Notes: generated by a model not told the origin, from the sequence alone. Shown: positions 3,405-17,552, numbered from the stretch's first letter. The stretch: 64,000 bases of DNA from Candidatus Omnitrophota bacterium (GCA_023247795.1 JAHFFT010000009.1:578-64577); one strand, 5' to 3'. Translations and numbers: made by a program.

Positions 3405-4742
3405 ATGATTAACAATGAGATAACAAAAAAGAAGGTTTTTGTCGAGACCTACGGCTGCCAGATGAATGAGTATGACTCTGAACTGGTGAAGGCGATTCTT
3501 GAAAAGAAAGAATATGCCTTTGTCAAAGACGAGAGGGAAGCTGATGTGGTCATGCTTAACACCTGCGCCATTAGGGAAAATGCTCATCGCAAAATTTATG
3601 GCCGTGTTCATCAAATCCGCCACGAACGTAGCGGCAAACCAGTCATGATCGGTCTTTTGGGATGCATGGCCACGAATCTGCGCCAAAATCTTTTAAACGA
3701 TCGACAATTAAAAATCGACTTTATCGCCGGGCCTGACAGTTACAAGCGCCTACCAGATCTCATTTCCCATGCTCAGGAAACGGGTGAAAAGACCTTTGAT
3801 CTGACACTGTCGGAATTTGAAACTTACTCTGATATTTTTCCCAAAAGGGAAGGAATGATCAACGCCTGGATCGCGGTCATGCGAGGGTGTAATAATTTCT
3901 GTACGTTTTGTGTTGTGCCATATACACGAGGAAGAGAACGCAGTCGAACCGTTGCCAACGTCGTTGCGGAATCTCAGCAGATCGCCAATCAAGGGGCCAA
4001 ACAGATCACGTTGCTAGGCCAAAACGTCAATTCTTATCACTGCGATGGGCAGGATTTTGCCGATCTTATCAACGCTGTTAGTGAAATCGAGGGGATCGAG
4101 AGGATCCGTTTCACGTCCCCGCACCCCAAAGATTTTCCAGAAAAGTTGTTAAAGACCATCGCCCAAAACAAAAAGGTCTGCAAACACATTCACCTGCCGT
4201 TGCAGGCGGGCAGCAACCGGATTTTGGATTTGATGAATCGCACCTATACCCGTGAAGAATTTCTCGACTTAGTTAACAAAATCAGAGATCTCATTTCTAA
4301 TGTGGCACTCACAACCGATATCATCATCGGTTTCCCAACCGAGACCGATGCTGAATTTGACGAAACAGTTGATATGATGGAAAAAGTGCGCTTCGATTCG
4401 GCATTCATTTTCAAATATTCTGAACGGGAAGGGACCATCGCCCAACGCAAATACCCTGATGATATCCATGATGCCATCAAGACCGAACGCATCGTCAAAC
4501 TCAACGAAATACAAAAGGGAATTGCCCATCAAAAAAACCTCGCTCATATCGGCGAGACGCTTGAGCTTTTAATGGAAAGAGACGCGACAGCTGATGATCC
4601 TTTCTCAAAAGGCCGCACTGATAGCAATAAGCTAGTCCACGTTCAAGGAAGTTTCCCGGTCGGATCATTCGTCAAGGCCACGATCACCGCAGCTTCACCC
4701 CAAAATCTCCGAGGGGCCGCCCTGAATAAACTCTTGATTTAG
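3405..4742 (+). CDS. miaB: tRNA-i6A37 methylthiotransferase MiaB (radical SAM)
   Basis: VETYGCQMNEYDSE N-terminal MTTase domain, then the CNNFCTFCVVP radical-SAM motif and a TRAM-like C-terminus. Confidence 0.9.
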   Translation: MINNEITKKKVFVETYGCQMNEYDSELVKAILEKKEYAFVKDEREADVVMLNTCAIRENAHRKIYGRVHQIRHERSGKPVMIGLLGCMATNLRQNLLNDRQLKIDFIAGPDSYKRLPDLISHAQETGEKTFDLTLSEFETYSDIFPKREGMINAWIAVMRGCNNFCTFCVVPYTRGRERSRTVANVVAESQQIANQGAKQITLLGQNVNSYHCDGQDFADLINAVSEIEGIERIRFTSPHPKDFPEKLLKTIAQNKKVCKHIHLPLQAGSNRILDLMNRTYTREEFLDLVNKIRDLISNVALTTDIIIGFPTETDAEFDETVDMMEKVRFDSAFIFKYSEREGTIAQRKYPDDIHDAIKTERIVKLNEIQKGIAHQKNLAHIGETLELLMERDATADDPFSKGRTDSNKLVHVQGSFPVGSFVKATITAASPQNLRGAALNKLLI

Positions 4743-4783
4743 CGAGAAAATTACGTTATATTCACCGAAAAGGATAGATCTAA

Positions 4784-5815
4784 ATGCTAACCACAGAACA
4801 CCTTACCGCCGAGCAACTCTATGCGACTTTGAAAAATATCAAAGTCGGAGGGACGGTCTGTCATTATTCACTCAAAAAATGTGCAGAATTTGTCCCCATC
4901 ATCAATGAAATCAATGAGTTGAAGCAGGAACAAAACGCGGTCATCTTAGCGCATTCATATGTCTCACCGGAGATCGTCTATGGGGTCGCGGATTTTGTTG
5001 GTGATTCTTATCAATTGAGCAAAGACGCCATGAGCACTGACGCGCAAAAAATCATCTTTGCCGCTGTCCGTTTTATGGGGGAGACTGCTCAAATCTTGAA
5101 TCCGGAAAAAGAAGTCTTGATTCCCGGACTGCTCGACGGCTGCACGCTGGCCGATTCGATCAATTCCGAGGAAGTAAAGAAATTAAGAGCACAGTTTCCG
5201 AACCATACTTTTGTCTGTTACATCAATACCACCGCCGAAGTCAAGGCCGAGTGTGATGTCTGTGTCACATCCGCCAACGTTTATGATATCGTACAAAAAA
5301 TCCCGAGTGACAAAATTTATTTTCTACCCGACAAATTGATGGGGAAAAACCTTGTTGAAGAAATGAAACGCCGGTCGGTGAAAAAGGACATCCAATACCA
5401 TCAAGGCACCTGTTATGTGCACGAAGAATACGAACCTTCGCAGATATACGAAATCCGCATGGAGCACCCGCAGGTAAAAGTGGTCAGCCACCCGGAATGC
5501 CGGCCAGAGGTCTGCGAGGCCAGCGATTTTGTTGGCAGCACTTCGCAAATGCTTGACTATATGCTTAAAACCGATGCTAAAGATTTTCTCATGTTGACCG
5601 AATGCGGCCTATCAGCACGCCTGCAGGTAGAGTTCCCAGATAAAAGGTTAGTCGGCTCCTGCACCTTGTGCCGCTACATGAAATCCAATTCTTTGATTGA
5701 TATCCTGCGGGTCCTTAAAGACCCTTCTGACCGCGACCGCGTTTTCCTTTCCGAAGAGACTCGCCTCAAAGCACACAAGTGCATCGAGGCGATGTTTCAC
5801 TACACACAGGGCTAA
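4784..5815 (+). CDS. nadA: Quinolinate synthase NadA
   Basis: 343 aa with the NadA triple-repeat architecture and conserved Cys residues. Confidence 0.85.
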   Translation: MLTTEHLTAEQLYATLKNIKVGGTVCHYSLKKCAEFVPIINEINELKQEQNAVILAHSYVSPEIVYGVADFVGDSYQLSKDAMSTDAQKIIFAAVRFMGETAQILNPEKEVLIPGLLDGCTLADSINSEEVKKLRAQFPNHTFVCYINTTAEVKAECDVCVTSANVYDIVQKIPSDKIYFLPDKLMGKNLVEEMKRRSVKKDIQYHQGTCYVHEEYEPSQIYEIRMEHPQVKVVSHPECRPEVCEASDFVGSTSQMLDYMLKTDAKDFLMLTECGLSARLQVEFPDKRLVGSCTLCRYMKSNSLIDILRVLKDPSDRDRVFLSEETRLKAHKCIEAMFHYTQG

Positions 5816-5947
5816 TTTAGCCTCTCATAAATACTCTAAATTCCTTACAAATAAACACTTACTCCATATTATACAAGGGTTTGTATTTGTCCTATCATGC
5901 ATGTTAAACTTTAATACACTTTACTAATACTAATAACGATTTCACTC

Positions 5948-8900
5948 ATGAACTTTTCTCGAAACAAATCCTATTTTTTATTTAAACCATTGGCGTACTT
6001 TGTCTTATGGTTTTTTCTTTTAAACAACCTCATGCCAATCCCCTTGGCTAACGCTCAGGAAATCTTTTCTCTGCCCAAACCAAACGTGATGCTGGGGCTA
6101 TCGAGTCCTTTTACTCCCGTTATTCTTAAAGGACTTAAGGTCAACACCCATAACCCTTTCGAATTTGACTTCATCATTGACTCGGGCAGCAATAAACTAC
6201 AAGTTAACGCGGTCGGGGATCAAAACGAACATATCCAACAACAACTCAAACCGGAATCAGAGAAACTCATCAAATATTTTTTGGCGTCCTTAACCATCCC
6301 CGAGGATGACCTTTGGGTCAACTTATCGGTGTATGAAAGTGGTAAAATCGTGCCTGCTCAATTAGGCCAAACTGAAATGGGTCGCGATTTGTTGGCCCAA
6401 GATTATCTGCTCAAACAACTGAGTTCATCTTTGCTATACCCAGAAAATGAAATTGGAAAAAAATTCTGGGAACGCGTTTATCAAAAAGTTTATGAAAAAT
6501 TCGGGCGCACCGATGTGCCCATCAATACGTTTAATAAAATTTGGATCGTTCCAGAGAAAGCCGTTGTGTACGAAAATGGCGCAAACGCCTTTGTTGTTGA
6601 AAGCTCGCTGAAAGTTATGCTTGAGGAAGATTATCTGGCAAAGCAAGAAGAAGGAAAGAGCAACCCGATCGCAAAAATTCAACAAGACGATACTTCAACC
6701 CTTTCATCGCAAATTGTTCGTGACGTCATGATCCCAGCGATTGAGCAGGAAGTTAATGAAGGAGCGTTATTTTCTCAACTGAGACAAATCTACAGCGCGC
6801 TCATCCTGGCGACCTGGTACAAAAAGGCCTTAAAAGAAAGTTTGATCAGCCAAATTTACGTTGACCAGAAAAAAGTAAAAGGAGTTGAAACAAACGACCC
6901 CGGCGTCATTAACAAAATCTACGATCAATACGTGCAGGCCTTCAAAGAAGGCGTCTACAATTTCATCAAAGAGGATTACGACCCCTATACTAAAGAAAAT
7001 ATCCCTAGAAAATATTTTTCCGGTGGTTTAACGCTCAAATTAAAAGATAAAGAACAGTACGTAACAACATTAGGCCATCAAAACAGCACTGACTTATTTA
7101 GCGTTCATGCCGGAACAAACGGCCTTGCTCCTTCAGGGGTTATTCCACTGAGTAATGATATTATTAGAGAAATGAAGTTAAAGCCTCTTGATGGTTCATT
7201 GGAATTGAACTCACAAAATTTCGGCTTAAATATAACTCCTAAAACAAACGATGTCTTCATGTTTACAAGTACCAAAAATGATGAAATAACCGAACTCGAA
7301 AACCATTGCCGCGAGTTTGTTGATCAGAATCTAGATCGAGTCCTAAAAAAATTTCATGTCCCAGGCAAATTGCAAACAAGAAGCAAAGTTCTTCTGATTC
7401 AAGAGATGGTCGATATTAAAATGACGGATGATCCTGACTTATCAGATGAATTGATTCTTGAGTATGTCATTGTTGAATTTGTTGAAAAGGACGTTGACTT
7501 TTTAAAAAATACTCGTGTACCTGATGATACGGAAATAAAAATCACAAATAAAGCACTAAAAATGTTGGAAGCAATTAACGAAAAATGGAAATTGCCTGAT
7601 GCTCCGACCGTCTCTATTGTTATGAGTTCCAATTTTAAGGATAAAGTCAATGGTAGGTATGTGGATCTTTTTCATACAATGGTGATTAAAGAAGATTTAT
7701 CAGAGGATGAAATGTTGGAGACCATCTTACATGAATGGCTGCATCATTTTTTTGAAGGCTTTGAAGCAAAATGGCTGGATGAAGGAACAATCGAATACCT
7801 TACGATTAAACTCTTAATTGAAAATAATGCCCTGCCGCAACAACCCAAGCAAATGCCGGAATGGTCGGATAAAATTGAAAAAATGGTTTTTGGCAAATTA
7901 TTTGAATTAGGCAAGATTGGTCCGGTGAGTCAATATATTGTCAGCCATTATTTGAACCAAGGAACCGTTTCTTATCCAATTTACACAATCATTGTAGAGT
8001 ATCTCGTGGAGCAGATACTCCCAAAATTGAATATGGACTTACCATCTTTCCTTTCTGATTTCAAATTTGGGAGAAAGACAAAAATATTTGAGCAGCTGAC
8101 AAGTAATTCAAGAAATAGTTTGTTTGAACTTATTGAGCAAGCTCAAAATAGTAAAAATTTTTATGATTGGCCAGAAAACATTCTTATTAGCACTGAGCAG
8201 AGAGCCCAAATGGAACAAATAATTGCGTCCATAGTGAAAACTCATCCTTGGGCTCTTAAAGCCCCGCATGTTGTTAAACATGTAACAGACGTATTGAATT
8301 TATTACTATTAACTCATCAAACAGTTATGTCTAGTGATGGAGTTTTACAAATTACTAGGGAACACTTCCAGAATTTGCTTGAGCTTCAAGAAAGAATGCG
8401 TGCCGCAAACCAAGCAGGGGATAAACAAACAAGGGCACAATTAGAAAACGAGTTGGCTCGGATGGAAAACGATTTTGATGATAAGTTAAATGAAATTGGG
8501 AGAGCTCCTATTGATTTATTAATGCTAGGGAAAGATGGTGAACCAGCGTCTGCCATGGAAAACCAGGGAGTCTCAGAAGAACCTTCTGATCAATTTAAAT
8601 CCAAACTCAAACATACAATTAGAAATCTTGACCCTGAAACCAAAATTTTCGAAACGGGAATGACAATCGGAGGCCTTAAGACCATATTCGGTATAGAAGA
8701 CGACCTGGAAATGGCTCATGTTGATGATTTTCGAATAAAAAATTTAAATCCAAAATACATTGATCTCGTCTCGTATCTTGGCGCCAAAGAGTTCAATAAT
8801 TCTTTGGAATCCATTCTAAAAATTATTTATATTTTAGAAAATTACCCTCATATTCTGTTAGAAGTAGGCGGGGGAACAACCAAAGTTGCCCATGCCCTAG

Positions 8901-9793
8901 CCTTAAAAAATCAAAATATAGGAGTCATCACCTTTGATAAGTATGATCGATTATCAGGGGACTACGGTGAATGGGGGCGAGATTTTCAACGAAATGCTTT
9001 AATCGCCCAAAAAAATGCTCTTAACAATTTAGTCGTCGTACGGGCGGATCAAAGAATGCTGCGTTACTTGCCTTTAAATGCTGTGGATGATATTTTATTT
9101 GTCAACCCCAATTTTCTGCTTGCCGAAATAAAATTGGATAAAGAAACGCAGAGGCCTTTAAAACCCAATGGAAGGATTCTACAAAAACCATATGATCACC
9201 GGCAATTTATTGACCGAGGAACTCTTGAGGCTATATTAGCCGTTGAGCCAGATTTTTTTAACGCAGTTGCCCTTGCCAAAAAAAGATCCAAATTTCCAAT
9301 CCATGTGCTGGGAAGAGATTTTCAACCGCCTTATGATCCTCATGAAAGATCTCTCCCTGGCATTATTCGAATTAAGGGTCCCCAAGAAGAAATTATTCAA
9401 GGATATACTTTTACAAATCTGAATACCAGTATCCTTTATGGCGTGGATATCGAACCCCTGGCCTGGCAAAATAGAGGAGAAACATTATATGAGTGGCGGA
9501 AAGAACATGTGCCAATAAAACCTATGAGTGACAAACTCTTATTATCCAGTCCAACAGCCGCTTCTGAAACAAATGACTTTCAAAAAGGTGGTATTGACCT
9601 CAATCCCATCCGATCTCAGTTGGATGTCAAAGGCAATGAACAAAAACCGGTTTTTAATTTCAATCTGAACGATTTGAAAAAAATCAACATTGAAGGGTTA
9701 AGTCCGTTTATTATCAACATCTCCCCCATCACAAACCTTCCTTTGTTCTTGAGTTATCAAGAAGAAGATCAACAACCGAGTGAAATCCGCTAA
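5948..9793 (+). CDS. Large secreted or membrane-anchored multidomain protein with a gluzincin-like HExxH..E motif and a C-terminal class I SAM-methyltransferase-like domain
   Basis: N-terminal hydrophobic signal peptide (cleavage site ...PLANA-QE). HEWLHHFFEGFEAKWLDEGTIEY at ~aa 590 resembles HExxH...WLNEGFATY of M1/gluzincin peptidases. LEVGGGTTKVAHALA...ITFDKYD...AVDDILFVNPNF...KPNGRIL carries Rossmann MTase motifs I, II, IV-like and III. Confidence 0.55.
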   Translation: MNFSRNKSYFLFKPLAYFVLWFFLLNNLMPIPLANAQEIFSLPKPNVMLGLSSPFTPVILKGLKVNTHNPFEFDFIIDSGSNKLQVNAVGDQNEHIQQQLKPESEKLIKYFLASLTIPEDDLWVNLSVYESGKIVPAQLGQTEMGRDLLAQDYLLKQLSSSLLYPENEIGKKFWERVYQKVYEKFGRTDVPINTFNKIWIVPEKAVVYENGANAFVVESSLKVMLEEDYLAKQEEGKSNPIAKIQQDDTSTLSSQIVRDVMIPAIEQEVNEGALFSQLRQIYSALILATWYKKALKESLISQIYVDQKKVKGVETNDPGVINKIYDQYVQAFKEGVYNFIKEDYDPYTKENIPRKYFSGGLTLKLKDKEQYVTTLGHQNSTDLFSVHAGTNGLAPSGVIPLSNDIIREMKLKPLDGSLELNSQNFGLNITPKTNDVFMFTSTKNDEITELENHCREFVDQNLDRVLKKFHVPGKLQTRSKVLLIQEMVDIKMTDDPDLSDELILEYVIVEFVEKDVDFLKNTRVPDDTEIKITNKALKMLEAINEKWKLPDAPTVSIVMSSNFKDKVNGRYVDLFHTMVIKEDLSEDEMLETILHEWLHHFFEGFEAKWLDEGTIEYLTIKLLIENNALPQQPKQMPEWSDKIEKMVFGKLFELGKIGPVSQYIVSHYLNQGTVSYPIYTIIVEYLVEQILPKLNMDLPSFLSDFKFGRKTKIFEQLTSNSRNSLFELIEQAQNSKNFYDWPENILISTEQRAQMEQIIASIVKTHPWALKAPHVVKHVTDVLNLLLLTHQTVMSSDGVLQITREHFQNLLELQERMRAANQAGDKQTRAQLENELARMENDFDDKLNEIGRAPIDLLMLGKDGEPASAMENQGVSEEPSDQFKSKLKHTIRNLDPETKIFETGMTIGGLKTIFGIEDDLEMAHVDDFRIKNLNPKYIDLVSYLGAKEFNNSLESILKIIYILENYPHILLEVGGGTTKVAHALALKNQNIGVITFDKYDRLSGDYGEWGRDFQRNALIAQKNALNNLVVVRADQRMLRYLPLNAVDDILFVNPNFLLAEIKLDKETQRPLKPNGRILQKPYDHRQFIDRGTLEAILAVEPDFFNAVALAKKRSKFPIHVLGRDFQPPYDPHERSLPGIIRIKGPQEEIIQGYTFTNLNTSILYGVDIEPLAWQNRGETLYEWRKEHVPIKPMSDKLLLSSPTAASETNDFQKGGIDLNPIRSQLDVKGNEQKPVFNFNLNDLKKINIEGLSPFIINISPITNLPLFLSYQEEDQQPSEIR

Positions 9794-9892
9794 TGACCTC
9801 TCATTTGGGTTAGATCTCTTCCTCAACTTAAATTGACAAACAATTCAACACTGTGTTATCATTCGATATTCTTTATTTCTAGAAGGAAAAAT

Positions 9893-11026
9893 ATGGGTAA
9901 AAATTCAGTCGGAATCGTTAAAACTCAATATTTCGAATGCTGTGAATCGCCGCAAGAACTCAAACTCAAGGGCGGGCAGCGACTTGGGCCCATCACCGTC
10001 GCCTACGAAACCTACGGCAATTTAAACAACCAAAAATCAAACGCCATCCTCATTTTTCATGCCCTGAGCGGAGACGCGCATGCCGCTGGATGGCATGAAG
10101 AGGCCAAAAACCCGGGTTGGTGGGACGGCATGATCGGTCCCGGCAAGGCCTTTGACACCAACAAATATTTTGTCATCTGTGCGAATGTCCTCGGAAGTTG
10201 TAAAGGAAGCACCGGACCAGCTTCGATCAATCCCAAAACCGGCAAACCTTACGGCCTAAGTTTTCCCGTTGTGACAATCGAAGACATGGTGGAAGTGCAG
10301 AAATTACTCATCGACCATTTAGGGATCAAAAAATTATTGTCAACGGCCGGAGGATCCATGGGAGGGCTTTTGGCCTTAAAATGGTCAGTCCTTTATCCGG
10401 AAACAACTGCCTCGGTCATCACCATTGCGACAAATCACCGGCACACCGCCCAGCAGATTGCCTTGCATGAAGTCTGCCGCCAGGCGATCATGTCTGATCC
10501 CGACTGGCAGGGAGGAGATTACTATGGAAAATCCATTCCGGCGCGAGGTTTGGCCCTATCGCGCATGATTGGGCACATCACGTACATGAGTGAAAAATCC
10601 ATGGATGATAAATTCGGCCGTAAACTGATTGGTAAAGAAAAAGTCGGATACGATTTTACTCAAGATTTTGAAGTTGAAAATTATCTCAAATACCGCGGGG
10701 ACAGTTTTGTCCAACGGTTTGACGCCAATTCTTATCTTTACTTAACAAAAACGCTCGACTATTTTGATTTGGCTGAGGAAGGGGCCCTGGTCTCAACGTT
10801 TCGCAACGTAACTGCCAATTTTTTAGTCATCTCCTTTTCTTCCGACTGGCTTTACCCGTCCTATCAATCAACCGAACTCGTCCGCGCGTTGAAAGCGAAT
10901 GATATCGATGTTTCTAACATCGAAATCAATACCAATTATGGCCACGATTCTTTCTTAGTTGAAATTGAAGGGCAGTCAAAATTGATTTCGCACTTTTTAA
11001 CCCGTTTAGAGAAAAAGCACCTGTAA
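9893..11026 (+). CDS. metX: Homoserine O-acetyltransferase MetX
   Basis: SVGIV...YETYG, alpha/beta hydrolase GGSMGG nucleophile elbow, HDSFL. Start chosen at the ATG at 9893, which follows a gaagga Shine-Dalgarno sequence; ORF 9833 is an N-terminal over-extension. Confidence 0.85.
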   Translation: MGKNSVGIVKTQYFECCESPQELKLKGGQRLGPITVAYETYGNLNNQKSNAILIFHALSGDAHAAGWHEEAKNPGWWDGMIGPGKAFDTNKYFVICANVLGSCKGSTGPASINPKTGKPYGLSFPVVTIEDMVEVQKLLIDHLGIKKLLSTAGGSMGGLLALKWSVLYPETTASVITIATNHRHTAQQIALHEVCRQAIMSDPDWQGGDYYGKSIPARGLALSRMIGHITYMSEKSMDDKFGRKLIGKEKVGYDFTQDFEVENYLKYRGDSFVQRFDANSYLYLTKTLDYFDLAEEGALVSTFRNVTANFLVISFSSDWLYPSYQSTELVRALKANDIDVSNIEINTNYGHDSFLVEIEGQSKLISHFLTRLEKKHL

Positions 11027-11029
11027 AAA

Positions 11030-11623
11030 ATGAGCCACTCAGACCGACTAGATTATCAGATTATCTTGGATTTCATCGAACCCAACTCCCGGGTCCTTGA
11101 CTTGGGCTGCGGCGACGGAGAACTCTTGGCGCTGTTAATCGAACAAAAAAAATGTCACGGCACCGGAATCGAAATCGATGAAAAAGCGATTTACCGTTGC
11201 ATGGCAAAAGGCCTCACCGTTTCTCATGGTGATATCAATTCCGGATTGGCCGATTATTCAAACAAACGCTTTGACTATGTGATCCTCAATGAAAGCCTGC
11301 AACAGATCCTGAATTTACAAAAAGTGATTTTAGAAGCGCTGCGGGTCGGAAAGAAAGTCATTGTTGGGGTCCCGAACTTTTGTCATTGGAGAGGCCGTCT
11401 GCAGGTTTTATTCAACGGACAGGTTCCCGTCACCAAAAAACTTCCCTTTGAATGGTACAATACACCCAACGTCCGCTTTTTTAGCATCAAAGATTTTCAA
11501 AATTTCTGTCTGATGAATAAAATTAAAGTCCTCGACCATAAAGCACTTGCTGACGATAACCTGGTATCATTTTTTCCGAACCTTTTTGCCCATATCGGAA
11601 TATTTTTATTGTCCAAAGACTAA
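11030..11623 (+). CDS. metW: Methionine biosynthesis protein MetW
   Basis: 197 aa with LDLGCGDGELL motif I, immediately downstream of metX. Confidence 0.85.
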   Translation: MSHSDRLDYQIILDFIEPNSRVLDLGCGDGELLALLIEQKKCHGTGIEIDEKAIYRCMAKGLTVSHGDINSGLADYSNKRFDYVILNESLQQILNLQKVILEALRVGKKVIVGVPNFCHWRGRLQVLFNGQVPVTKKLPFEWYNTPNVRFFSIKDFQNFCLMNKIKVLDHKALADDNLVSFFPNLFAHIGIFLLSKD

Positions 11624-11629
11624 TGGAAA

Positions 11630-11715
11630 CCCCTCGGAGGCTGCTGGGCCGCAGCCTCCTGGGGTAAATTCGCGCAGGCTGAGTTGACGTCGCTGACGCT
11701 CCGTAACTCAGGCGC
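11630..11715 (+). terminator. Two consecutive GC-rich hairpins in the metW 3' region (possible terminator or structured RNA)
   Basis: cccctcggaggctgc-tgggcc-gcagcctcctgggg (11630-11664), then gcgcaggctgagtt...aactcaggcgc (11672-11715). GC-rich in an AT-biased genome. Confidence 0.45.
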
Positions 11716-11733
11716 TCATTTAAAGGAGACCCC

Positions 11734-11913
11734 ATGCCTTATATCAACCTCAAACTCGTTGGAAAACTCACCAAAGAACAAAAGAATGAAATCGCCAAAC
11801 AATTTTCAGAGACCTTATTGAAAGTGGCCAATAAACCGAAAGACCATACCTATCTGGTCATTGATGAAGTGTCTGGTGAAAATTGGGCGGTGGGAGAAAA
11901 ACTTTTTGCTTAA
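11734..11913 (+). CDS. 4-oxalocrotonate tautomerase-family small protein (59 aa, N-terminal Pro1)
   Basis: Hand translation gives MPYINLKLVGKLTKEQKNEIAKQFSETLLKVANKPKDHTYLVIDEVSGENWAVGEKLFA. aaaggagac precedes the ATG. The ORF is absent from the ORF track because it is under 60 aa. Confidence 0.65.
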   Translation: MPYINLKLVGKLTKEQKNEIAKQFSETLLKVANKPKDHTYLVIDEVSGENWAVGEKLFA

Positions 11914-11949
11914 CGACGGTAGCCCGAAATGGGTGCTGTGTGTTGCGCG

Positions 11950-12183
11950 TTAATGAAAATTTTTATGAGTGCCGTCACAATAGGGTGGAGTGGACGTCGC
12001 TTTGCAGCCGCACCAGGCAACCTTTTTCTTTTCTGTTATTTGAACAACTTTAGGAAGCATGCCGGTATCGCCATGCGTGCCATCGCAAAAGGGTTGCTTT
12101 TGCGATTTACCGCAGCTGCACCAGGCGTACGAGCGAGGCTCAGCGTCTAGAATAAAGGGATGATAAATTAATTCTCCTGACAT
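11950..12183 (-). CDS. CDGSH iron-sulfur domain protein with two CDGSH motifs
   Basis: Two copies of C-x-C-G-x-S-x3-P-x-CDG(T/S)H: WCSCGKSQKQPFCDGTH and WCGCKATSTPPYCDGTH. Confidence 0.8.
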   Translation of the reverse strand: MSGELIYHPFILDAEPRSYAWCSCGKSQKQPFCDGTHGDTGMLPKVVQITEKKKVAWCGCKATSTPPYCDGTHKNFH

Positions 12184-12189
12184 AGAAAC

Positions 12190-12441
12190 TCAAAAGGCGT
12201 TATGAGTGCCATCACAAAAAGGCTTATCGACTGTATGTTTGCAGCCACACCAAGCAACGGTTTGCGTGCCTTCAATTTTTACAACCATCGGCCGAAACTC
12301 GCTGCCGCGATGAGATCCATCACAAAACGGTTGGTTCTTTGAGTTACCACACGCGCACCAGGCATAACTGCCAGGTTCCATCTTCAAAACAAAAGGGGAA
12401 TTTTTGGCAATATTTGGTTCACTCATTTTTAACCTCCTCAT
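12190..12441 (-). CDS. CDGSH iron-sulfur domain protein, tandem paralog with two CDGSH motifs
   Basis: WCACGNSKNQPFCDGSH and WCGCKHTVDKPFCDGTH. An AGGAGG Shine-Dalgarno sequence lies upstream on the - strand. Confidence 0.8.
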   Translation of the reverse strand: MRRLKMSEPNIAKNSPFVLKMEPGSYAWCACGNSKNQPFCDGSHRGSEFRPMVVKIEGTQTVAWCGCKHTVDKPFCDGTHNAF

Positions 12442-12526
12442 TTATTTTTGTAATTGTAGGAGAAAATCTTAGACAAGTCAATAAGCGGATGGAGACAGTC
12501 CCTAAAGGGAGGGTCACCCGGTTATC

Positions 12527-13720
12527 ATGAAAAAAACACAATATCTCATCATCGGGGCAGGTATTATCGGACTTTCCATTGCCCGCGCGCTCAAAAAACG
12601 CGATGCCTCCGGCAAAATCTTAATCATTGAAAAAGAACAAGATACTGCCCAACATGCTTCGGGCCGTAACAGTGGAGTTCTGCACGCTGGATTTTACTAT
12701 ACAGCCAACAGCTTAAAAGCGCGGTTTACGGTGGATGGGAATCGTCTCCTTAAAGAATACTGCCGGGAGAAAGGACTGCCGTTGAATGAATGTGGAAAAT
12801 TGGTTGTGGCGATGGATGACGCCGAGCTGCAAATCCTTTATGAGTTGGAAAAACGCGGTGTTCGTAACGGCGTTAAGGTTGAATTGATTGACGCGGCAGC
12901 CGCGAAAGAAATTGAACCAAATGTCAAAACGCATCAAAAAGCCTTGTATTCTCCAACGACGGCGAGCGTTGATCCGATCAAAGTCTGTCAGAGCTTAAAA
13001 GAGGATTTGAAACAACAGGGCGTTGAATTCCAATGGCAGGTGAGTTATGTCCGCCGCGAAAAGGGCACGGTTGAAACCAATCAAGGCGAAATCGAAGCTA
13101 AACAAGTGATCAATTGCGCTGGCCTCTACGCCGACAAAATCGCCCAAGATTTCGACTTTGGCCATGATTATACCATCATGCCTTTCAAAGGGCTTTATCT
13201 GAAATACAAAACCAATAAAACTGCTATCAAAACAAATATTTATCCCGTACCAAATTTACGAAACCCGTTTCTCGGGGTCCATTTCACCAAAACGGTTTAT
13301 GGTGACATCAAGATCGGCCCGACCGCTATTCCGGCCTTTTGGCGGGAAAACTATCAAGGATTTACAAATTTTCAAAGTAAGGAATTTCTGCAAATCATGG
13401 GTTATCAGAGCCAATTGCTGCTTAAAAACCGGTTTCATTTTCGAAACTTGGCTGTTGAAGAGATGAAAAAACACCAAAAATCATATTTTGTTGGCCTGGC
13501 CGCAAAACTGGTACAGCAGATTGACGCTGAAGGTTTTAGCGAATATACCAAACCCGGCATCCGCGCCCAGCTGCTCGATCGTAACACGCTTGAGCTGGTC
13601 CAGGATTTTGTCGTTGAAGGGGACGCTCACTCGGTCCACGTCTTAAACGCGGTTTCGCCTGCCTTTACCTGTGCCTTTCCGTTTGCTGAGCATATTGTCA
13701 GCCAATATTGTCCTGCTTGA
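12527..13720 (+). CDS. lhgO: L-2-hydroxyglutarate oxidase/dehydrogenase LhgO-family FAD oxidoreductase
   Basis: IIGAGIIGLSIA dinucleotide fold, then HASGRNSGVLHAGFYY...SLKARF, which is characteristic of LhgO. Confidence 0.75.
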   Translation: MKKTQYLIIGAGIIGLSIARALKKRDASGKILIIEKEQDTAQHASGRNSGVLHAGFYYTANSLKARFTVDGNRLLKEYCREKGLPLNECGKLVVAMDDAELQILYELEKRGVRNGVKVELIDAAAAKEIEPNVKTHQKALYSPTTASVDPIKVCQSLKEDLKQQGVEFQWQVSYVRREKGTVETNQGEIEAKQVINCAGLYADKIAQDFDFGHDYTIMPFKGLYLKYKTNKTAIKTNIYPVPNLRNPFLGVHFTKTVYGDIKIGPTAIPAFWRENYQGFTNFQSKEFLQIMGYQSQLLLKNRFHFRNLAVEEMKKHQKSYFVGLAAKLVQQIDAEGFSEYTKPGIRAQLLDRNTLELVQDFVVEGDAHSVHVLNAVSPAFTCAFPFAEHIVSQYCPA

Positions 13721-13859
13721 CTCAAGTCTCACGGTATTGTACACTTTAAATAAGCTGAAAAACGAATTATATCTTGACTTTTTGCTCTAGTTCGTTATGA
13801 TTTAGTTTAGCGGTCTTTAGAAATTAGCACGGAATTATGTCAAAAATAAGGAGTTACGC

Positions 13860-14423
13860 ATGAATTACCGAATCATGATTCAAGGAACACCCAATCCTAA
13901 TGCTTTAAAATTTGTCTTAAATGTTCCCGTAAAAAGCGCTGGAAACGTAACCTATAAATCCGCCCAAGATTGCGAGTTCAATCCTTTAGCGAAAAAAATT
14001 TTTGACGTCAGTCCTGACATCAAAGAGGTCTATTTTTTTGATAACTACATTACCGTCACTCAAAACGGCAACTCCGATTGGAACAATATTGAGGAGCTTG
14101 TGCAAAAAACCATTCTCGATAACGTTGCTCAACATAATCCTAATTTTATGGATGTTCAAAAGCAAACATCACCGCAACTGCAAGCCAATACCGATGACCC
14201 TGAACTGGCCAAGATTGGTGCCATTTTGGATCAAACCGTGCGCCCGGCGCTGCAGGCCGACGGAGGGGATTTGCAGCTGATTGAATTGCGTGACAATGTT
14301 TTAAAAATCAATTACCAAGGTGCCTGTGGCTCCTGCCCAAGTTCGACGATGGGAACGCTCAAAGCGATTGAAGAATTGCTTAAGTCGGAATACAACCCTA
14401 ATATCAAACTTGAAGCGGCTTAA
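13860..14423 (+). CDS. nfuA: Nfu/NifU-like Fe-S cluster carrier (Nfu N-terminal and NifU C-terminal domains)
   Basis: C-terminal GACGSCPSS CxxC motif and an Nfu_N-like N-terminal half. Confidence 0.75.
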   Translation: MNYRIMIQGTPNPNALKFVLNVPVKSAGNVTYKSAQDCEFNPLAKKIFDVSPDIKEVYFFDNYITVTQNGNSDWNNIEELVQKTILDNVAQHNPNFMDVQKQTSPQLQANTDDPELAKIGAILDQTVRPALQADGGDLQLIELRDNVLKINYQGACGSCPSSTMGTLKAIEELLKSEYNPNIKLEAA

Positions 14424-14439
14424 GATTGAAAAAAAACTT

Positions 14440-14814
14440 ATGACAAATCGTGCTGATTTAGCGCAAATGAAATGTGAGCCCTGTGAAGGAAAGACGGCTG
14501 CCTTCACGAAAAAGCAGGTGCTAGAGTATCTGACCGGTACGCCGGCATGGCGATTGGATATAAAAAACAATTCCATTTCACGCAATTTTCTTATGAAAAA
14601 TTTTTTGTCGGCGGTGAAATTCATTAATGAGGTTGCAGATATTGCTGAGGCTGACAACCATCATCCCGATGTCCATTTGACTGGATACCGGAATTTAAAA
14701 ATAGAATTGAGCACCCATGCGATTGGCGGATTGTCAGAAAGCGATTTTATTGTTGCGGCAAAGATCGACCGGCTACAACCGGAACTGAAGGCCGAAAGAA
14801 AAGCCCATGTTTAA
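14440..14814 (+). CDS. Pterin-4a-carbinolamine dehydratase (PCD/DCoH)
   Basis: EADNHHPDVHLTGY signature. The ATG at 14440 is in the frame of ORF 14320; the upstream part overlaps nfu and is treated as an over-extension. Confidence 0.75.
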   Translation: MTNRADLAQMKCEPCEGKTAAFTKKQVLEYLTGTPAWRLDIKNNSISRNFLMKNFLSAVKFINEVADIAEADNHHPDVHLTGYRNLKIELSTHAIGGLSESDFIVAAKIDRLQPELKAERKAHV

Positions 14815-15262
14815 AATCAACCGAAAAATCGAATACGCCTTAATCGCCCTTAAGCACATGAGCCATAAATCACCAGGACAGCTGACCTCCGCCAAAGAAA
14901 TCTGCGATCTTTATCATACACCCTTTGACCCAACGTCGCGGGTATTGCAAATCATGTCGCAGCATGAGGTGGTCCGAGCGGAACAAGGGGCCTATGGCGG
15001 TTATCAGATCGTAAAAGATTTAAAAAAAGTCACCTTGGGTGAGCTTTGTGACATGATTTCCGGACCGATTCAAATCGCCAGCTGTTTTTCCGGTGATTAT
15101 TCCCACTGCGAATTGAACACCTATTGCAGTGTCATTGGCCCGATGTTGAACCTGAATGAAAAAATCTCAGCACTTTTCGGTCAAATCAAGATCGCTGATT
15201 TGATCGAACGCAAGCATCTCGGCGAAAAATCGATCCGCGAAAAGCCGACAGCAGAAAAATAA
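14807..15262 (+). CDS. Rrf2-family transcriptional regulator (IscR/SufR-like) leading the suf operon
   Basis: [13 protein letters not shown]-terminal winged helix-turn-helix typical of Rrf2. Cys residues are consistent with an Fe-S-sensing regulator. Confidence 0.8.
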
Positions 15263-15269
15263 GGAGTTC

Positions 15270-16751
15270 ATGATGGTGAAAGCTTCTGAAGAAAAATTAC
15301 TCAATGAGAAAACCATTGAGGAAAATAGCCTGTCCCGTCGAGATTACAAATACGGATTCGTCACGGACATTGAAACCGAACGCATCCCTATGGGGCTGAA
15401 TGAAGACATCATTGCTCTGATCGCGGAAAAGAAAAATGAGCCGCAATGGATGCTGGAGTGGCGCTTGAAGGCCTATCGGCATTGGACAAAAATGAAAGAA
15501 CCGCATTGGCCAAATTTTCATTACGACCCGATCGATTATCAAGCCTTGAGTTATTACACCTCACCCAAATGGAAAAAAGACCAACAGCCTAAAAATTTGG
15601 ATGAGGTTGATCCGGAACTGTTGAAAACGTTTGAACGTTTAGGGATCCCTTTGACCGAACAAAAACGCTTAAGCGGTGTGGCAGTGGATGCGGTGTTTGA
15701 CAGCGTTTCCGTAGGAACAACGCATCAATCCGAACTGGAAAAGCACGGTGTCATTTTCTGTTCAGTGAGTGAGGCGGTGAAAACTCATCCGGAACTGGTT
15801 AAAAAATATCTGGGCAGTGTTGTGCCCTACACCGACAATTTCTTTGCCGCCCTCAATTCGGCAGTGTTCAGCGATGGTTCCTTCTGCTATATCCCAAAAG
15901 GAGTGCGCTGCCCGTTGGATTTATCCACTTATTTTCGCATCAATGCCGCGGAAACCGGTCAGTTCGAGCGTACCTTGATCGTTGCCGAAGAGGGGAGTTA
16001 CGTAAGCTACCTGGAAGGCTGCACAGCACCGATGCGAGAGCAAAACCAATTGCATGCCGCGGTTGTCGAACTCATCGCTTTAGATAACGCCGAGATCAAA
16101 TATTCGACCGTGCAGAACTGGTATGCCGGTGACAAACAAGGAATAGGCGGCATTTACAACTTCGTCACCAAACGCGGAAAATGCCTTGGTCATCACTCCA
16201 AAATTTCCTGGACGCAGGTTGAGGCTGGTTCGGCCATCACCTGGAAATACCCCAGTGTCATTTTGCAAGGGGATGATTCGATTGGTAAATTTTATTCCGT
16301 TGCCTTGACCAACAACCGTATGCGGGCAGATACCGGAACCAAAATGATCCATATCGGTAAGAACACCAAAAGCACCATCATCTCCAAAGGGATCTCGACC
16401 GATGAGTCCAATAACAATTACCGCGGGCTGGTGAAAGTGCTGCCGTCTGCGGATAATGCGCGAAATTTTTCGCAATGCGACTCGATGCTGGTCGGTAATA
16501 AATGCAGTGCCAATACCTTTCCGTATATCGAAGTAAAAAATAGCACGGCCACATTAGAGCATGAGGCCTCAACTTCTAAAATCAATGCCGATCAAATTTT
16601 TTATCTGCAATCACGCGGGTTGGATTTGGAAGGGGCCATCTCTTTGATCATCAACGGTTTTTGTAAGGAGGTCTTCAAAGAACTTCCTCTGGAATTCGCC
16701 GTCGAGGCGGTCAAACTTTTAGAAATGAAATTGGAAGGAAGTGTTGGTTAA
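15270..16751 (+). CDS. sufB: Fe-S cluster assembly protein SufB
   Basis: 493 aa with SufB/SufD-family conserved C-terminal region, in a suf operon context. Confidence 0.9.
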
Positions 16752-16778
16752 CCCATTAACGAAAGAGGTTCTAAGTCG

Positions 16779-17531: not shown

Positions 17532-17552
17532 ATCTTGCTCAAGGGATTAACA

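What the first reader, a model, noticed from the sequence alone, without database searches (positions are those of the whole stretch)
5948..9793. 1281-aa secreted protein combining a gluzincin-type HExxH..E motif with a C-terminal Rossmann methyltransferase-like domain
Seen in sequence:
- N-terminal signal peptide.
- HEWLHHFFEGFEAKWLDEGTIEY (~aa 590) mirrors the HExxH...WLNEGFATY zinc site of M1-type gluzincins, with a shorter spacer.
- The last ~350 aa carry SAM-MTase motif I (LEVGGGTTKVAHALA), an acidic beta-2 end (ITFDKYD), a motif IV-like DDILFVNPNF reminiscent of the NPPY/F of amino-methyltransferases, and motif III (KPNGRIL).

Inference:
- A peptidase-like module and an MTase module on one exported polypeptide is not a described family arrangement that I recognise.
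- It could be a secreted effector or modification enzyme.
- It sits between nadA and metX under its own AT-rich promoter region.
Basis: partly seen in the sequence, partly recalled or inferred. Interest (0 to 1): 0.65.

Follow-up and report, generated by a model that had tools for sequence, protein, structure and literature searches.

The report
Exported cap–cargo–cap enzyme, Omnitrophota family
This gene encodes an exported 1,281-residue protein whose peptidase-like and methyltransferase-like parts are one interchangeable "cargo" carried between a conserved head and tail, which together define a very large, apparently undescribed protein family found only in the tiny, possibly predatory Omnitrophota bacteria.

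Summary
The HExxH…E signature is invariant in the module's only three detectable relatives among 1.84 billion proteins. Its predicted topology fits a gluzincin, but fold matches are not significant. The C-terminal module is a class I SAM-methyltransferase-like domain of the TrmB/NpmA type, supported by consistent profile hits.

Residues ~37-362 (N-cap) and ~1212-1276 (C-cap) are shared with thousands of Omnitrophota proteins that carry unrelated enzymes in between (kinases, glycolytic enzymes, phosphatases, methyltransferases).

- Of 122 retrieved proteins, 121 have the N-cap and 119 have the C-cap.
- The two caps co-vary (Mantel r 0.72), while 650 of 660 pairs with near-identical N-caps have unrelated cargo.
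- 101 of 121 members have a Sec-type signal peptide (AxA|Q).
- Neither cap matches Pfam, NCBIfam, PDB or viral structures.

So the peptidase+methyltransferase combination is one permutation within a modular, exported, many-copy family. It may be a small relative of the giant Omnitrophota "Archaeovorin" proteins. What the caps do is inferred, not shown: most plausibly sorting, anchoring or delivery of enzymes to the cell surface or to a host or prey cell.

The parts
5816..5947 (+). AT-rich intergenic spacer upstream of the gene; candidate promoter region
   Evidence: GC is 28% against 44% for the window, in the lowest 0.2% of 132-nt windows. There are two 9/12 sigma-70-like matches at 5844-5872 and 5870-5898, but the count is not above the shuffled expectation. 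Promoter function is not shown.
5948..9793 (+). Whole ORF, 1281 aa plus stop codon
   Evidence: An ortholog of 89% identity lies in conserved synteny. Overall dN/dS is 0.33.
5948..6055 (+). Sec-type signal peptide, aa 1-36, with predicted cleavage ANA|QE
   Evidence: Positive n-region (+3), hydrophobic core and an AxA site. 101 of 121 family members meet the same three criteria. Of 105 predicted cleavage sites, 88 have Ala at -1 and 79 have Gln at +1. This is a heuristic; SignalP was not run.
6056..7033 (+). N-cap: family-defining N-terminal domain, aa ~37-362
   Evidence: 50-59% identical to thousands of Omnitrophota proteins. About 50 columns are invariant. It is always at the ORF start and never internal. 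AlphaFold model: pLDDT 76, pTM 0.73. No match in Pfam, NCBIfam, PDB sequences, PDB folds or viral folds. dN/dS is 0.11.
7034..7264 (+). Linker, aa 363-439
   Evidence: Family conservation decays here. pLDDT drops below 50 from aa 356 in the N-cap model.
7265..8272 (+). HExxH (zincin-like) cargo module, aa ~440-775
   Evidence: Only 3 relatives among 1.84 billion representatives. The motif is invariant. AlphaFold model: pLDDT 67. Predicted order: three strands, then the HExxH helix, then a helix carrying the Glu. Foldseek top hits are IrrE/PprI, selecase and thermolysin, none significant. Sub-threshold Pfam and PDB hints point to M61, BSP and DUF6782. dN/dS in the core is 0.19.
7730..7798 (+). 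Putative metal-binding signature H595-E596-x-x-H599 ... W609-L-D-E612-G ... Y617
   Evidence: The block of the model containing it has pLDDT of about 87-90.
8273..8722 (+). Helical, low-complexity spacer, aa 776-925
   Evidence: It has no homologs outside the ortholog. pLDDT is below 50 where it was modelled. The family profile gives only coiled-coil-type noise hits here.
8753..9508 (+). Class I SAM-methyltransferase-like cargo module (TrmB/NpmA type), aa ~936-1187
   Evidence: HMM match E 2e-61 to the 10-copy module profile. The profile hits HemK, TrmB and KamB-type structures. 7 of 10 copies match Pfam Methyltransf_4 and 6 of 10 match NpmA. One copy passes Pfam's own cut-off and another aligns to GidB over model positions 35-164 of 184. 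The query copy alone reaches only NpmA E 0.05. Its structure was not predicted.
9581..9775 (+). C-cap: family-defining C-terminal tail, aa ~1212-1276 (GGIDLNP ... G.sPfIINIsPitNLPlFL)
   Evidence: Present in 119 of 122 proteins, ending a median of 4 aa before the C-terminus. GGI(D), G40 and P50 are invariant. No Pfam or NCBIfam match. A profile search finds only Omnitrophica-labelled fragments. dN/dS is 0.12.

Best explanation
The gene encodes one member of a very large, Omnitrophota-restricted family of modular exported proteins. The layout is signal peptide, N-cap (~330 aa), variable enzyme cargo (~300 to more than 3,000 aa), then C-cap (~65 aa at the extreme C-terminus).

Shown here:
- The caps are strictly coupled and co-vary.
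- They are under strong purifying selection.
- They are more alike within a genome than between genomes.
- The cargo between them is exchanged freely.

In this member the cargo is two independent modules:
- a minimal gluzincin-like HExxH-x12-E domain;
- a TrmB/NpmA-like class I SAM-methyltransferase domain, placed next to the C-cap.

Inferred mechanism:
1. The protein crosses the inner membrane through Sec and the signal peptide is cut at ANA|QE.
2. The two caps act together as the constant sorting, anchoring or delivery apparatus, recognised by a conserved lineage-specific envelope partner.
3. The cargo enzymes act outside the producer's cytoplasm. Because they need cytoplasmic cofactors such as SAM and ATP, the most plausible site is on or inside a host or prey cell.

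On this reading the peptidase-like module would cut a protein target and the methyltransferase-like module would modify RNA or another target there.
For: Family and architecture:
- More than 4,434 homologs share only the N-terminal ~28% of the query, with diverse Pfam enzymes in between.
- 118 of 118 non-orthologous hits share the N-cap by BLAST. With HMMs, 121 of 122 have the N-cap and 119 of 122 the C-cap.
- In 79 genomic loci the N-cap is always at the ORF start. Of about 64 ORFs that end inside a locus, 55 finish with the tail. 'Tail-only' ORFs are frameshift continuations or neighbours cut by the locus edge.
- More than 595 loci were found in species-representative genomes, labelled Omnitrophota or an uncertain Planctomycetales/'bacterium'. 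One MAG contributes at least 7 of the top 80.

Coupling and modularity:
- Mantel r between N-cap and C-cap identity is 0.72 (0 of 999 permutations reach it).
- 650 of 660 pairs with at least 70% identical N-caps have unrelated cargo.
- Within-genome N-cap identity is 0.73 against 0.57 between genomes (p 1.5e-22).

Export:
- 101 of 121 members have a positive n-region, a hydrophobic core and a small-x-small site, with Ala at -1 and Gln at +1.
- The query has no other TM-like segment.

Selection (dN/dS):
- N-cap 0.11, zincin core 0.19, methyltransferase module 0.25, tail 0.12.

Modules:
- HExxH module.
- Methyltransferase module.

Context:
- Omnitrophota giant proteins carry the same enzyme repertoire and are mostly predicted to be membrane-associated or extracellular (bioRxiv 10.1101/2023.11.21.568195; 10.64898/2026.06.07.730766).
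- The one studied member of the phylum is an epibiotic predator whose RNA reaches prey cells (PMC13153191).
Against: - There is no experimental or structural evidence for localisation or for what the caps do.
- The N-cap fold has no recognisable analog, so its role is pure inference.
- SAM- and ATP-dependent cargo makes little sense in a periplasm or outside a cell unless it is delivered into another cell. No delivery machinery was found next to family genes.
- The zincin assignment is weak. Foldseek's best E is 0.098 with low TM scores. The model has pLDDT 67 from a 4-sequence alignment. The Pfam and PDB profile hits are sub-threshold.
- The query's own methyltransferase copy does not reach any Pfam threshold. 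Profile-profile alignment to MetW covers motif I only. Its fold was not modelled.
- The signal peptide was judged by heuristics only.
Confidence: 0.6

Rival explanations
1. One reading: a stand-alone, functionally integrated bifunctional secreted enzyme, in which the peptidase and the methyltransferase work together and the combination itself is the novelty.
For: Both modules are on one polypeptide. Both are conserved in the ortholog and under purifying selection. Both motif sets are intact.
Against: The modules occur independently. Eight methyltransferase-module carriers lack the HExxH module, and P0121 has the HExxH module without the methyltransferase module. A 150-aa low-complexity spacer separates them. 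The conserved parts of the protein are the caps, not the pair. Cargo is shuffled throughout the family.
Confidence: 0.1
2. The N-terminal hydrophobic segment is an uncleaved membrane anchor and the protein body stays on the cytoplasmic face. The family would then be a set of membrane-tethered cytoplasmic enzymes, with the caps organising them on the inner membrane.
For: The cargo is overwhelmingly cytoplasm-type and cofactor-dependent: HATPase_c, response regulators, PGK, GAPDH, kinases, SAM methyltransferases. The 2026 preprint reads many long Omnitrophota proteins as membrane-anchored with cytoplasmic content (10.64898/2026.06.07.730766).
Against: The charge distribution gives N-in, C-out: the n-region is +3 and the first 15 mature residues are net 0. 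A signal-peptidase-type site (A at -1, Q at +1) is conserved in most members, which is hard to explain for an anchor. The query has only one hydrophobic segment.
Confidence: 0.15
3. The family supplies enzymes to an enlarged or specialised periplasm or envelope compartment of the producer itself (a PVC-type cell plan), not to another cell.
For: Export is well supported. Family genes are scattered among housekeeping genes with no toxin/immunity or secretion neighbours. The cargo includes whole stretches of central metabolism.
Against: No source of ATP, NAD or SAM is known in bacterial periplasms (established knowledge). DNA-binding HTH domains in an exported 3,349-aa member, together with kinases, phosphatases and DnaJ, are odd for a periplasm.
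Confidence: 0.1
4. A polymorphic-toxin-like interbacterial competition system, with a conserved delivery region and variable toxic domains.
For: A constant region with variable enzymatic modules, many copies per genome and cargo swapping resemble polymorphic toxins.
Against: No conserved small downstream immunity gene, and no conserved neighbour of any kind, was found in 79 loci. The cargo is mostly metabolic or signalling enzymes rather than nucleases, deaminases or pore formers. The variable part is internal, between two conserved ends, not C-terminal.
Confidence: 0.05

Closest known systems
Archaeovorin-type giant multi-enzyme proteins of Omnitrophota (West-Roberts et al., bioRxiv 10.1101/2023.11.21.568195; long-protein catalogue, bioRxiv 10.64898/2026.06.07.730766)
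   Same: Same phylum. Same unusual repertoire of cytoplasm-type enzyme domains on signal-peptide or TM-bearing polypeptides: methyltransferases, HATPase_c, NUDIX, PPDK_N, phosphoglucomutase, GNAT, peptidases, HEAT repeats. Their N-terminal regions are said to 'generally lack identifiable domains'. The HExxH module is shared with a TM-rich protein of at least 5,912 aa.
   Different: Size: 0.66 to more than 3.7 kaa here, against 10-147 kaa. Members usually have no internal TM helices. The family is defined by an N-cap/C-cap pair that neither paper describes. P0122 lacks the C-cap. Whether the giants start with the N-cap was not testable here.
Type IX secretion system cargo proteins with a conserved C-terminal domain (established knowledge)
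   Same: The logic is the same: a Sec signal peptide, very diverse enzymes, and a conserved beta-rich domain of ~70-100 aa at the extreme C-terminus, in dozens of paralogs per genome.
   Different: NCBIfam, which includes the T9SS sorting-domain models, gave no hits. T9SS is a Bacteroidota/FCB system (my own knowledge). T9SS cargo has no conserved N-terminal domain. T9SS cargo is extracytoplasmic-type (hydrolases, adhesins), not kinases or glycolytic enzymes.
MARTX toxins (established knowledge)
   Same: Conserved N- and C-terminal regions flank a central array of effector modules that are shuffled between strains. The conserved ends are thought to deliver the middle into a target cell.
   Different: MARTX toxins are exported by a type I system and have no Sec signal peptide. 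Their ends are long glycine-rich repeat regions. They contain an autoprocessing cysteine protease domain. There is one gene per genome, not many.
Minimal gluzincins and MA-clan zincins: selecase/minigluzincins, IrrE/PprI (ImmA/IrrE type), M61, BSP, thermolysin
   Same: HExxH on one helix, preceded by a small beta-sheet and followed by a helix bearing an invariant Glu in W-x-x-E-G. These are the top Foldseek hits (IrrE prob 0.77; selecase prob 0.84, TM 0.51 on the target) and the sub-threshold Pfam/PDB hits.
   Different: No match is statistically significant. The spacer is 12 residues, against 18-19 in M1 and thermolysin. There is no GAMEN motif. The module has additional invariant motifs, GPVS and EY..ILP. 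It has only three known relatives.
TrmB (Pfam Methyltransf_4) and NpmA/KamB 16S rRNA m1A1408 methyltransferases
   Same: Motif I (E/DxGxGxx), an acidic residue ending strand 2, N-L-x-x-x-R-A-D, LPDxSxDxxxxxxP and LKPGGxI are conserved in order. The profile hits TrmB and KamB-type structures. Pfam Methyltransf_4 matches 7 of 10 copies and NpmA 6 of 10.
   Different: Scores are mostly below the curated cut-offs; the query copy scores 13 bits against 60 for NpmA. Matches cover mainly the N-terminal half of the models. The module has its own ~100-aa C-terminal extension. It sits on an exported protein, and its substrate is unknown.

Membership tests
Omnitrophota N-cap/C-cap ('cap-cargo-cap') family (defined here) | N-terminal ~330-aa domain directly after a signal peptide | tested here: met
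   The query aa 10-363 is 53% identical to P0003, and aa 29-379 is 52% identical to P0017. The HMM matches 121 of 122 proteins, always at the N-terminus.
Omnitrophota N-cap/C-cap ('cap-cargo-cap') family (defined here) | ~65-aa GGIDLNP...PVIINIxPxxNLPxFLG tail at the extreme C-terminus | tested here: met
   The query has it at aa 1212-1276. It is present in 119 of 122 proteins.
Sec (SPase I) signal peptide | Positive n-region, hydrophobic h-region, small-x-small cleavage site | tested here: met
   Charge +3, hydrophobic core, ANA|Q. 101 of 121 relatives also pass. This is heuristic only; SignalP and DeepTMHMM were not available.
Gluzincin (MA(E)) metallopeptidases | HExxH on a helix plus a Glu ligand on the following helix | tested here: met
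   H595, E596, H599 and E612 are invariant in 4 of 4 copies. The model places HExxH in a helix at module residues 147-163 and E173 in a helix at 169-186, after three strands. The metal-site geometry could not be inspected because no coordinates are returned.
Gluzincin (MA(E)) metallopeptidases | Significant sequence or fold match to a known zincin family | tested here: not met
   The best Foldseek hit is E 0.098 (IrrE). Selecase reaches prob 0.84 but E 0.29. Pfam hits to M61, BSP and DUF6782 are at E 0.06-0.11. The PDB profile hit to M61 is at E 2.8.
Gluzincin (MA(E)) metallopeptidases | Zinc binding and proteolytic activity | not testable with these tools
   Requires biochemistry.
   The spacer is 12 residues and there is no G.MEN in the protein. 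There is no Pfam M1 hit at E up to 10.
Class I SAM-dependent methyltransferases (TrmB / NpmA-KamB lineage) | Motif I glycine-rich loop, acidic residue at the end of strand 2, and downstream motifs in canonical order | tested here: met
   EVGGG at aa 972 and ITFD, with G49, G51, D72, N102, R107, D122 and P129 (alignment numbering) invariant or nearly so in 10 copies.
Class I SAM-dependent methyltransferases (TrmB / NpmA-KamB lineage) | Profile match above the curated threshold | tested here: inconclusive
   The query copy reaches NpmA at 13.3 bits against a cut-off of 60. The P0027 copy reaches Methyltransf_4 at 25.6 bits against 24. The P0017 copy aligns to GidB over model positions 35-164 of 184 at E 4e-4. 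The module profile hits HemK at 6e-4 and TrmB at 7e-4 in the PDB. hhalign against MetW covers motif I only, with prob 42%.
Class I SAM-dependent methyltransferases (TrmB / NpmA-KamB lineage) | Rossmann-like seven-strand fold shown by a structure | not tested
   The motif is absent from the query. The residues after 'NP' vary among paralogs (NF, NS, SR, MA, AK, FD...).
T9SS C-terminal sorting domain | Match to the curated T9SS sorting-domain models | tested here: not met
   NCBIfam returned no families at E up to 10 for the whole protein. Pfam found nothing on the tail.
ClyA-family alpha pore-forming toxins (weak top fold hits for the N-cap) | Significant structural superposition | tested here: not met
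   MakB, ClyA and NheA score E 0.16-1.5, prob 0.10 or less and TM about 0.13.
Archaeovorin giant proteins | Giant size (tens of thousands of aa) with many TM helices | tested here: not met
   The query is 1281 aa with a single N-terminal hydrophobic segment. The enzyme repertoire of the family overlaps.

The most novel reading that the evidence does not exclude
The N-cap and C-cap are the two halves of a previously unrecognised, phylum-specific protein sorting and delivery system. Through it, ultra-small Omnitrophota would export dozens of cytoplasm-type enzymes per genome (glycolytic enzymes, kinases, phosphatases, RNA-type methyltransferases, peptidases). These would be placed on the surface of, or injected into, host or prey cells, making the family the phylum's effector arsenal. 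The giant 'Archaeovorins' would be the extreme end of the same design.
Probability: 0.25. Interest if true: 0.9.

Novelty: new variant of a known kind. Interest (0 to 1): 0.68.

Why it matters
Omnitrophota are abundant, uncultivated nanobacteria suspected of living off other cells. How they interact with hosts is unknown, and attention so far has gone to a few dozen giant genes.

This locus points to a much larger family of ordinary-sized proteins: thousands of sequences, with several to many copies per genome. The family uses one constant head-and-tail pair to carry an open-ended set of enzymes behind a secretion signal.

If the caps are a sorting or delivery signal, they give three things:
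- a simple sequence handle (two HMMs) to enumerate the exported or effector repertoire of any Omnitrophota genome;
- a way to search for the partner machinery by phylogenetic profiling;
- a framework for explaining why cytoplasm-type enzymes sit on exported proteins in this phylum.

The locus also supplies two orphan domains (N-cap, C-cap) and a very rare zincin-like module as structural targets.

Tried and rejected
- **M1-type aminopeptidase.** Rejected: no GAMEN motif, a 12-residue spacer, and no profile hit.
- **NPPY-type motif IV.** Rejected.
- **T9SS C-terminal domain.** Rejected: no NCBIfam or Pfam hit.
- **ClyA-like pore-forming fold for the N-cap.** Rejected as unsupported: TM about 0.13 and E at least 0.16. 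Viral structures are also negative.
- **Fast or diversifying evolution of the HExxH module.** This was suggested by 72% identity there against 96-99% elsewhere between the orthologs. Rejected: its dS (0.55) matches neighbouring housekeeping genes (nadA 0.44), dN/dS is 0.19-0.31, and the whole 14-kb syntenic region is a mosaic of 76-99% identity, i.e. population recombination.
- **A conserved partner or neighbour gene.** None found. The most 'recurrent' neighbour cluster was an antisense shadow ORF of the N-cap itself.
- **Paralogs elsewhere in the window.** None.
- **Giant proteins as concatenated cap units.** No internal N-cap was found in any retrieved protein.
- **Obligate pairing of the HExxH and methyltransferase modules.** Rejected.

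Searches that led nowhere:
- The search for homologous proteins with aa 901-1205 returned nothing, not even the query itself.
- hhalign of the methyltransferase module against MetW aligned only motif I.
- The tail-profile search returned only short fragments.
- Five literature searches found no description of the caps.

Full report
**1. The observation**

The ORF is exactly as reported: 5948..9793, + strand, ATG start, 1281 aa. It lies between nadA (Pfam NadA, E 1e-102) and metX/metW, with miaB further upstream.

The 132-nt spacer in front of it is truly AT-rich. It has 28% GC against 44% for the window, in the lowest 0.2% of windows of that size. Its promoter-like hexamers are no more frequent than in shuffled sequence, so a dedicated promoter is plausible but not shown.

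The whole protein has no Pfam, NCBIfam or PDB sequence match.

**2.

A search of 5.8 billion proteins gave more than 4,434 hits. Only one, P0002 (89% identical), is full-length. All the others share about 28% of the query at 50-59% identity.

Pairwise alignments place that shared part at aa ~10-363. They also show a second, weaker shared block at aa 1214-1276.

| Element | BLAST, 118 non-orthologous hits | HMM, 122 proteins |
|---|---|---|
| N-terminal domain (N-cap) | 118 | 121 |
| C-terminal tail (C-cap) | 94 | 119 |
| Methyltransferase-like module | about 9 | 11 |
| HExxH region | 0 | 4 |

- The exceptions to the caps are fragments.
- The N-cap is never internal.
- The tail ends a median of 4 residues before the C-terminus.

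In 79 genomic loci the same rule holds. There are 90 ORFs with the N-cap, always at the ORF start. Of about 64 ORFs that end within a locus, 55 finish with the tail. 'Tail-only' ORFs are frameshift continuations or upstream neighbours cut by the locus edge. Lengths run from about 660 to more than 3,700 aa, and tandem copies are common.

All loci come from MAGs labelled Omnitrophota/Omnitrophica, or from MAGs with uncertain 'Planctomycetales' or 'bacterium' labels. One MAG contributes at least 7 of the best 80.

**3. The middle is interchangeable cargo**

Of the 120 listed homologs, 47 carry precomputed Pfam domains between the caps. These include:
- histidine-kinase ATPase and response-regulator domains;
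- SAM methyltransferases;
- phosphoglucomutase, PGI, FBP aldolase, GAPDH, PGK, FBPase and PPDK_N;
- UDP-glucose pyrophosphorylase, NUDIX and DnaJ;
- Ser/Thr kinase, PP2C and metallophosphoesterase;
- GNAT, phosphoribosyltransferase and PLD;
- M3 and M48 peptidases, and HEAT repeats.

The rest rest on my knowledge of the Pfam accessions. Large members can be almost entirely unannotated: L010 has 3,360 aa and no Pfam hit.

The two caps co-vary strongly:
- Mantel r is 0.72, and 0 of 999 permutations reach it.
- 650 of the 660 protein pairs with at least 70% identical N-caps have no detectable cargo similarity.
- For example, P0021 and P0041 have caps 92% and 86% identical and unrelated cargo.

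N-caps are more alike within a genome (median 73%) than between genomes (57%; p 1.5e-22). This points to lineage-specific expansion and/or concerted evolution.

No neighbouring gene recurs. The only apparent one was an antisense shadow of the N-cap. Family genes sit among housekeeping genes.

**4. Export**

The query has an n-region charge of +3, one hydrophobic segment, and ANA|QE. Across the family, 101 of 121 members satisfy all three signal-peptide criteria. Of 105 predicted cleavage sites, 88 have Ala at -1 and 79 have Gln at +1, and the median cleavage position is after residue 36.

This is heuristic, but a conserved signal-peptidase-type site is hard to reconcile with a mere membrane anchor.

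**5. The caps have no known relatives**

- The N-cap model is usable (pLDDT 76, pTM 0.73). It has two short strands, long helices and a long beta-hairpin at aa 197-225.
- It matches nothing in the PDB. The best hit is E 0.16 with TM about 0.13. The ClyA-family and colicin hits are not significant.
- It matches nothing among viral structures.
- The family profile finds no solved homolog by sequence.
- A profile search with the tail retrieves only short Omnitrophica fragments.

**6. The HExxH module (aa ~440-775)**

An exhaustive HMMER scan of 1.84 billion representatives found only three relatives:
- the ortholog P0002;
- P0121, a complete 3,159-aa cap-family member that also carries GNAT and His_Phos_1 domains;
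- P0122, a 5'-truncated, TM-rich protein of at least 5,912 aa with no C-cap.

At 26-30% overall identity, the signature HExxH-x8-W[LI][DN]EG..[ED]YL is invariant. So are a GPVS motif and an EY..ILP motif.

The AlphaFold model is moderate (pLDDT 67, about 87-90 around the motif). Its order of elements is three strands, then the HExxH helix, then a helix carrying E612. That is the canonical zincin/gluzincin core.

Foldseek finds nothing significant. Even so, every hit with appreciable probability is a zincin:
- IrrE/PprI (E 0.098, prob 0.77);
- selecase (prob 0.84, TM 0.51 on the target);
- an M. tuberculosis transcriptional regulator (6cz6; prob 0.63) that I take, from memory, to be IrrE-like;
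- thermolysin and B. cereus neutral protease.

Sub-threshold sequence hints point the same way: M61 on the W..EG..EY segment, BSP and DUF6782. dN/dS in the core is 0.19.

I rate a zincin-like fold at about 0.65-0.7. Membership of any named peptidase family is not established, and M1 is excluded. From memory, gluzincin-type motifs with spacers of 8-24 residues are known (M60-like domains), so a spacer of 12 is not disqualifying.

**7. The methyltransferase-like module (aa ~936-1187)**

Ten paralogous copies align with conserved motif I, the strand-2 Asp, NL...RAD, LPD.S.DYILLVNP and LKPGG.I.

- The profile hits HemK (6e-4), TrmB (7e-4 to 4e-3) and KamB-type 16S methyltransferases (0.011) in the PDB.
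- 7 of 10 copies match Pfam Methyltransf_4/TrmB, and 6 of 10 match NpmA.
- One copy passes Pfam's own cut-off, and one aligns to GidB across most of the Rossmann core.
- The query copy alone is sub-threshold.
- hhalign against MetW covers only motif I.
- The fold was not modelled.

I rate a class I methyltransferase fold at about 0.85.

The module is always next to a cap: 43-101 aa after the N-cap in eight carriers, and 10-25 aa before the C-cap in the query, P0002 and P0004. It does not co-occur with the HExxH module in P0121.

**8. Evolution between the two orthologs**

| Region | dN/dS | dS |
|---|---|---|
| N-cap | 0.11 | 0.06 |
| C-cap | 0.12 | about 0.05 |
| Methyltransferase module | 0.25 | about 0.07 |
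| aa 440-775 | 0.31 | 0.55 |

The uneven dS mirrors a mosaic of 76-99% identity along the whole 14-kb syntenic block. It therefore reflects population recombination and is not specific to this gene.

**9. How it most likely works**

Shown:
- a strictly coupled, co-varying, strongly constrained pair of terminal domains behind a conserved Sec-type signal peptide;
- freely exchanged enzyme cargo;
- restriction to one phylum;
- many copies per genome.

Inferred:
1. After Sec export and cleavage, the caps are recognised by a conserved, lineage-specific envelope partner.
2. The caps sort, anchor or deliver the protein.
3. The cargo acts outside the producer's cytoplasm.

The cargo is overwhelmingly cofactor-dependent, so the least strained site of action is another cell. 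This fits what is known of the phylum:
- The one studied member is an epibiotic predator whose RNA ends up in prey cells (PMC13153191).
- Giant Omnitrophota proteins carry the same domain repertoire and are mostly predicted to be extracellular or membrane-associated (10.1101/2023.11.21.568195; 10.64898/2026.06.07.730766).

The main rival is a membrane-tethered, cytoplasm-facing scaffold. It explains the cofactor problem but conflicts with the charge bias and the conserved cleavage site.

**10. Comparison and novelty**

The closest analogies in logic are:
- T9SS cargo: signal peptide, diverse enzymes and a conserved C-terminal domain;
- MARTX toxins: conserved ends flanking shuffled effectors.

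Membership in either is not met or not applicable. The closest biological relatives are the Archaeovorin-type giants. Neither paper on them, nor five full-text searches, describes the N-cap/C-cap pair. That library is incomplete, so a prior description cannot be excluded.

I class this as a new variant of a known kind. The reading as a new sorting or delivery system remains a live, higher-novelty possibility (probability about 0.25).

Noticed in passing
window 3426-17792 vs L080 (JAHFFS010000004.1, GCA_023247815.1): The 14-kb syntenic block shared with a related MAG is a mosaic. Nucleotide identity swings between 76% and 99% in 300-nt bins. dS is 0.44 for nadA, 0.20 for metW and 0.06 for the N-cap. 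This suggests frequent homologous recombination in the population.
   Followed up: partly
window 9833-9893: A strong promoter-like site (TTGACA-18-TATCAT with an upstream TG, 11/12) lies at 9833-9862. It sits inside the TTG-started 'metX' ORF listed mechanically. The real metX start is probably the ATG at 9893 (MGKNSVG...), preceded by a GGA-rich ribosome-binding site. This agrees with the 377-aa call in the ortholog. metX-metW therefore appear to have their own promoter directly after the gene of interest, and no terminator-like site was found.
   Followed up: partly
window 5948-9793: The gene has lower GC (38.2%) than the window (44.4%). The HExxH module is lowest at 35.5% and the N-cap highest at 41.7%. 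There is no obvious Shine-Dalgarno sequence before its ATG.
   Followed up: no
C-termini of family members (alignment A4): Beyond the conserved tail, many members end with an acidic stretch followed by ...LS[YLM]xx at the very C-terminus (e.g. LQLSYAH, QLSLAR, EVSYL, QVSYLN). The query ends ...EEDQQPSEIR and lacks it. This may be a second terminal signal.
   Followed up: no
L082 1-20739 (JACOUC010000015.1, GCA_016178055.1): P0122 is a 5'-truncated ORF of at least 5,912 aa with about 8 TM-like segments. It shares the rare HExxH module but has no C-cap. It is followed by two copies of a small-ORF + PIN_3 pair that looks like a toxin-antitoxin module.
   Followed up: partly
L062 9439-19485: A complete 3,349-aa cap-family member carries XRE-type helix-turn-helix DNA-binding domains (HTH_19 at aa 1500-1563; HTH_3 at aa 1399-1446). 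That is odd content for an exported protein.
   Followed up: no
L041 9941-12679: This 913-aa member has a second, internal copy of the C-tail (aa 484-547) in addition to the terminal one (aa 845-909).
   Followed up: no
mature N-terminus of family proteins (query aa 37): The residue after the predicted cleavage site is Gln at 79 of 105 predicted sites. The mature proteins may therefore start with pyroglutamate, directly followed by the conserved LPxPGxMV motif.
   Followed up: no
tool behaviour, query aa 901-1205: the search for homologous proteins with window:8648-9562 returned no hit at all, not even the query's own protein P0001. This is probably a word-prefilter artefact, so absence of hits from that call is not evidence of absence.
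   Followed up: no
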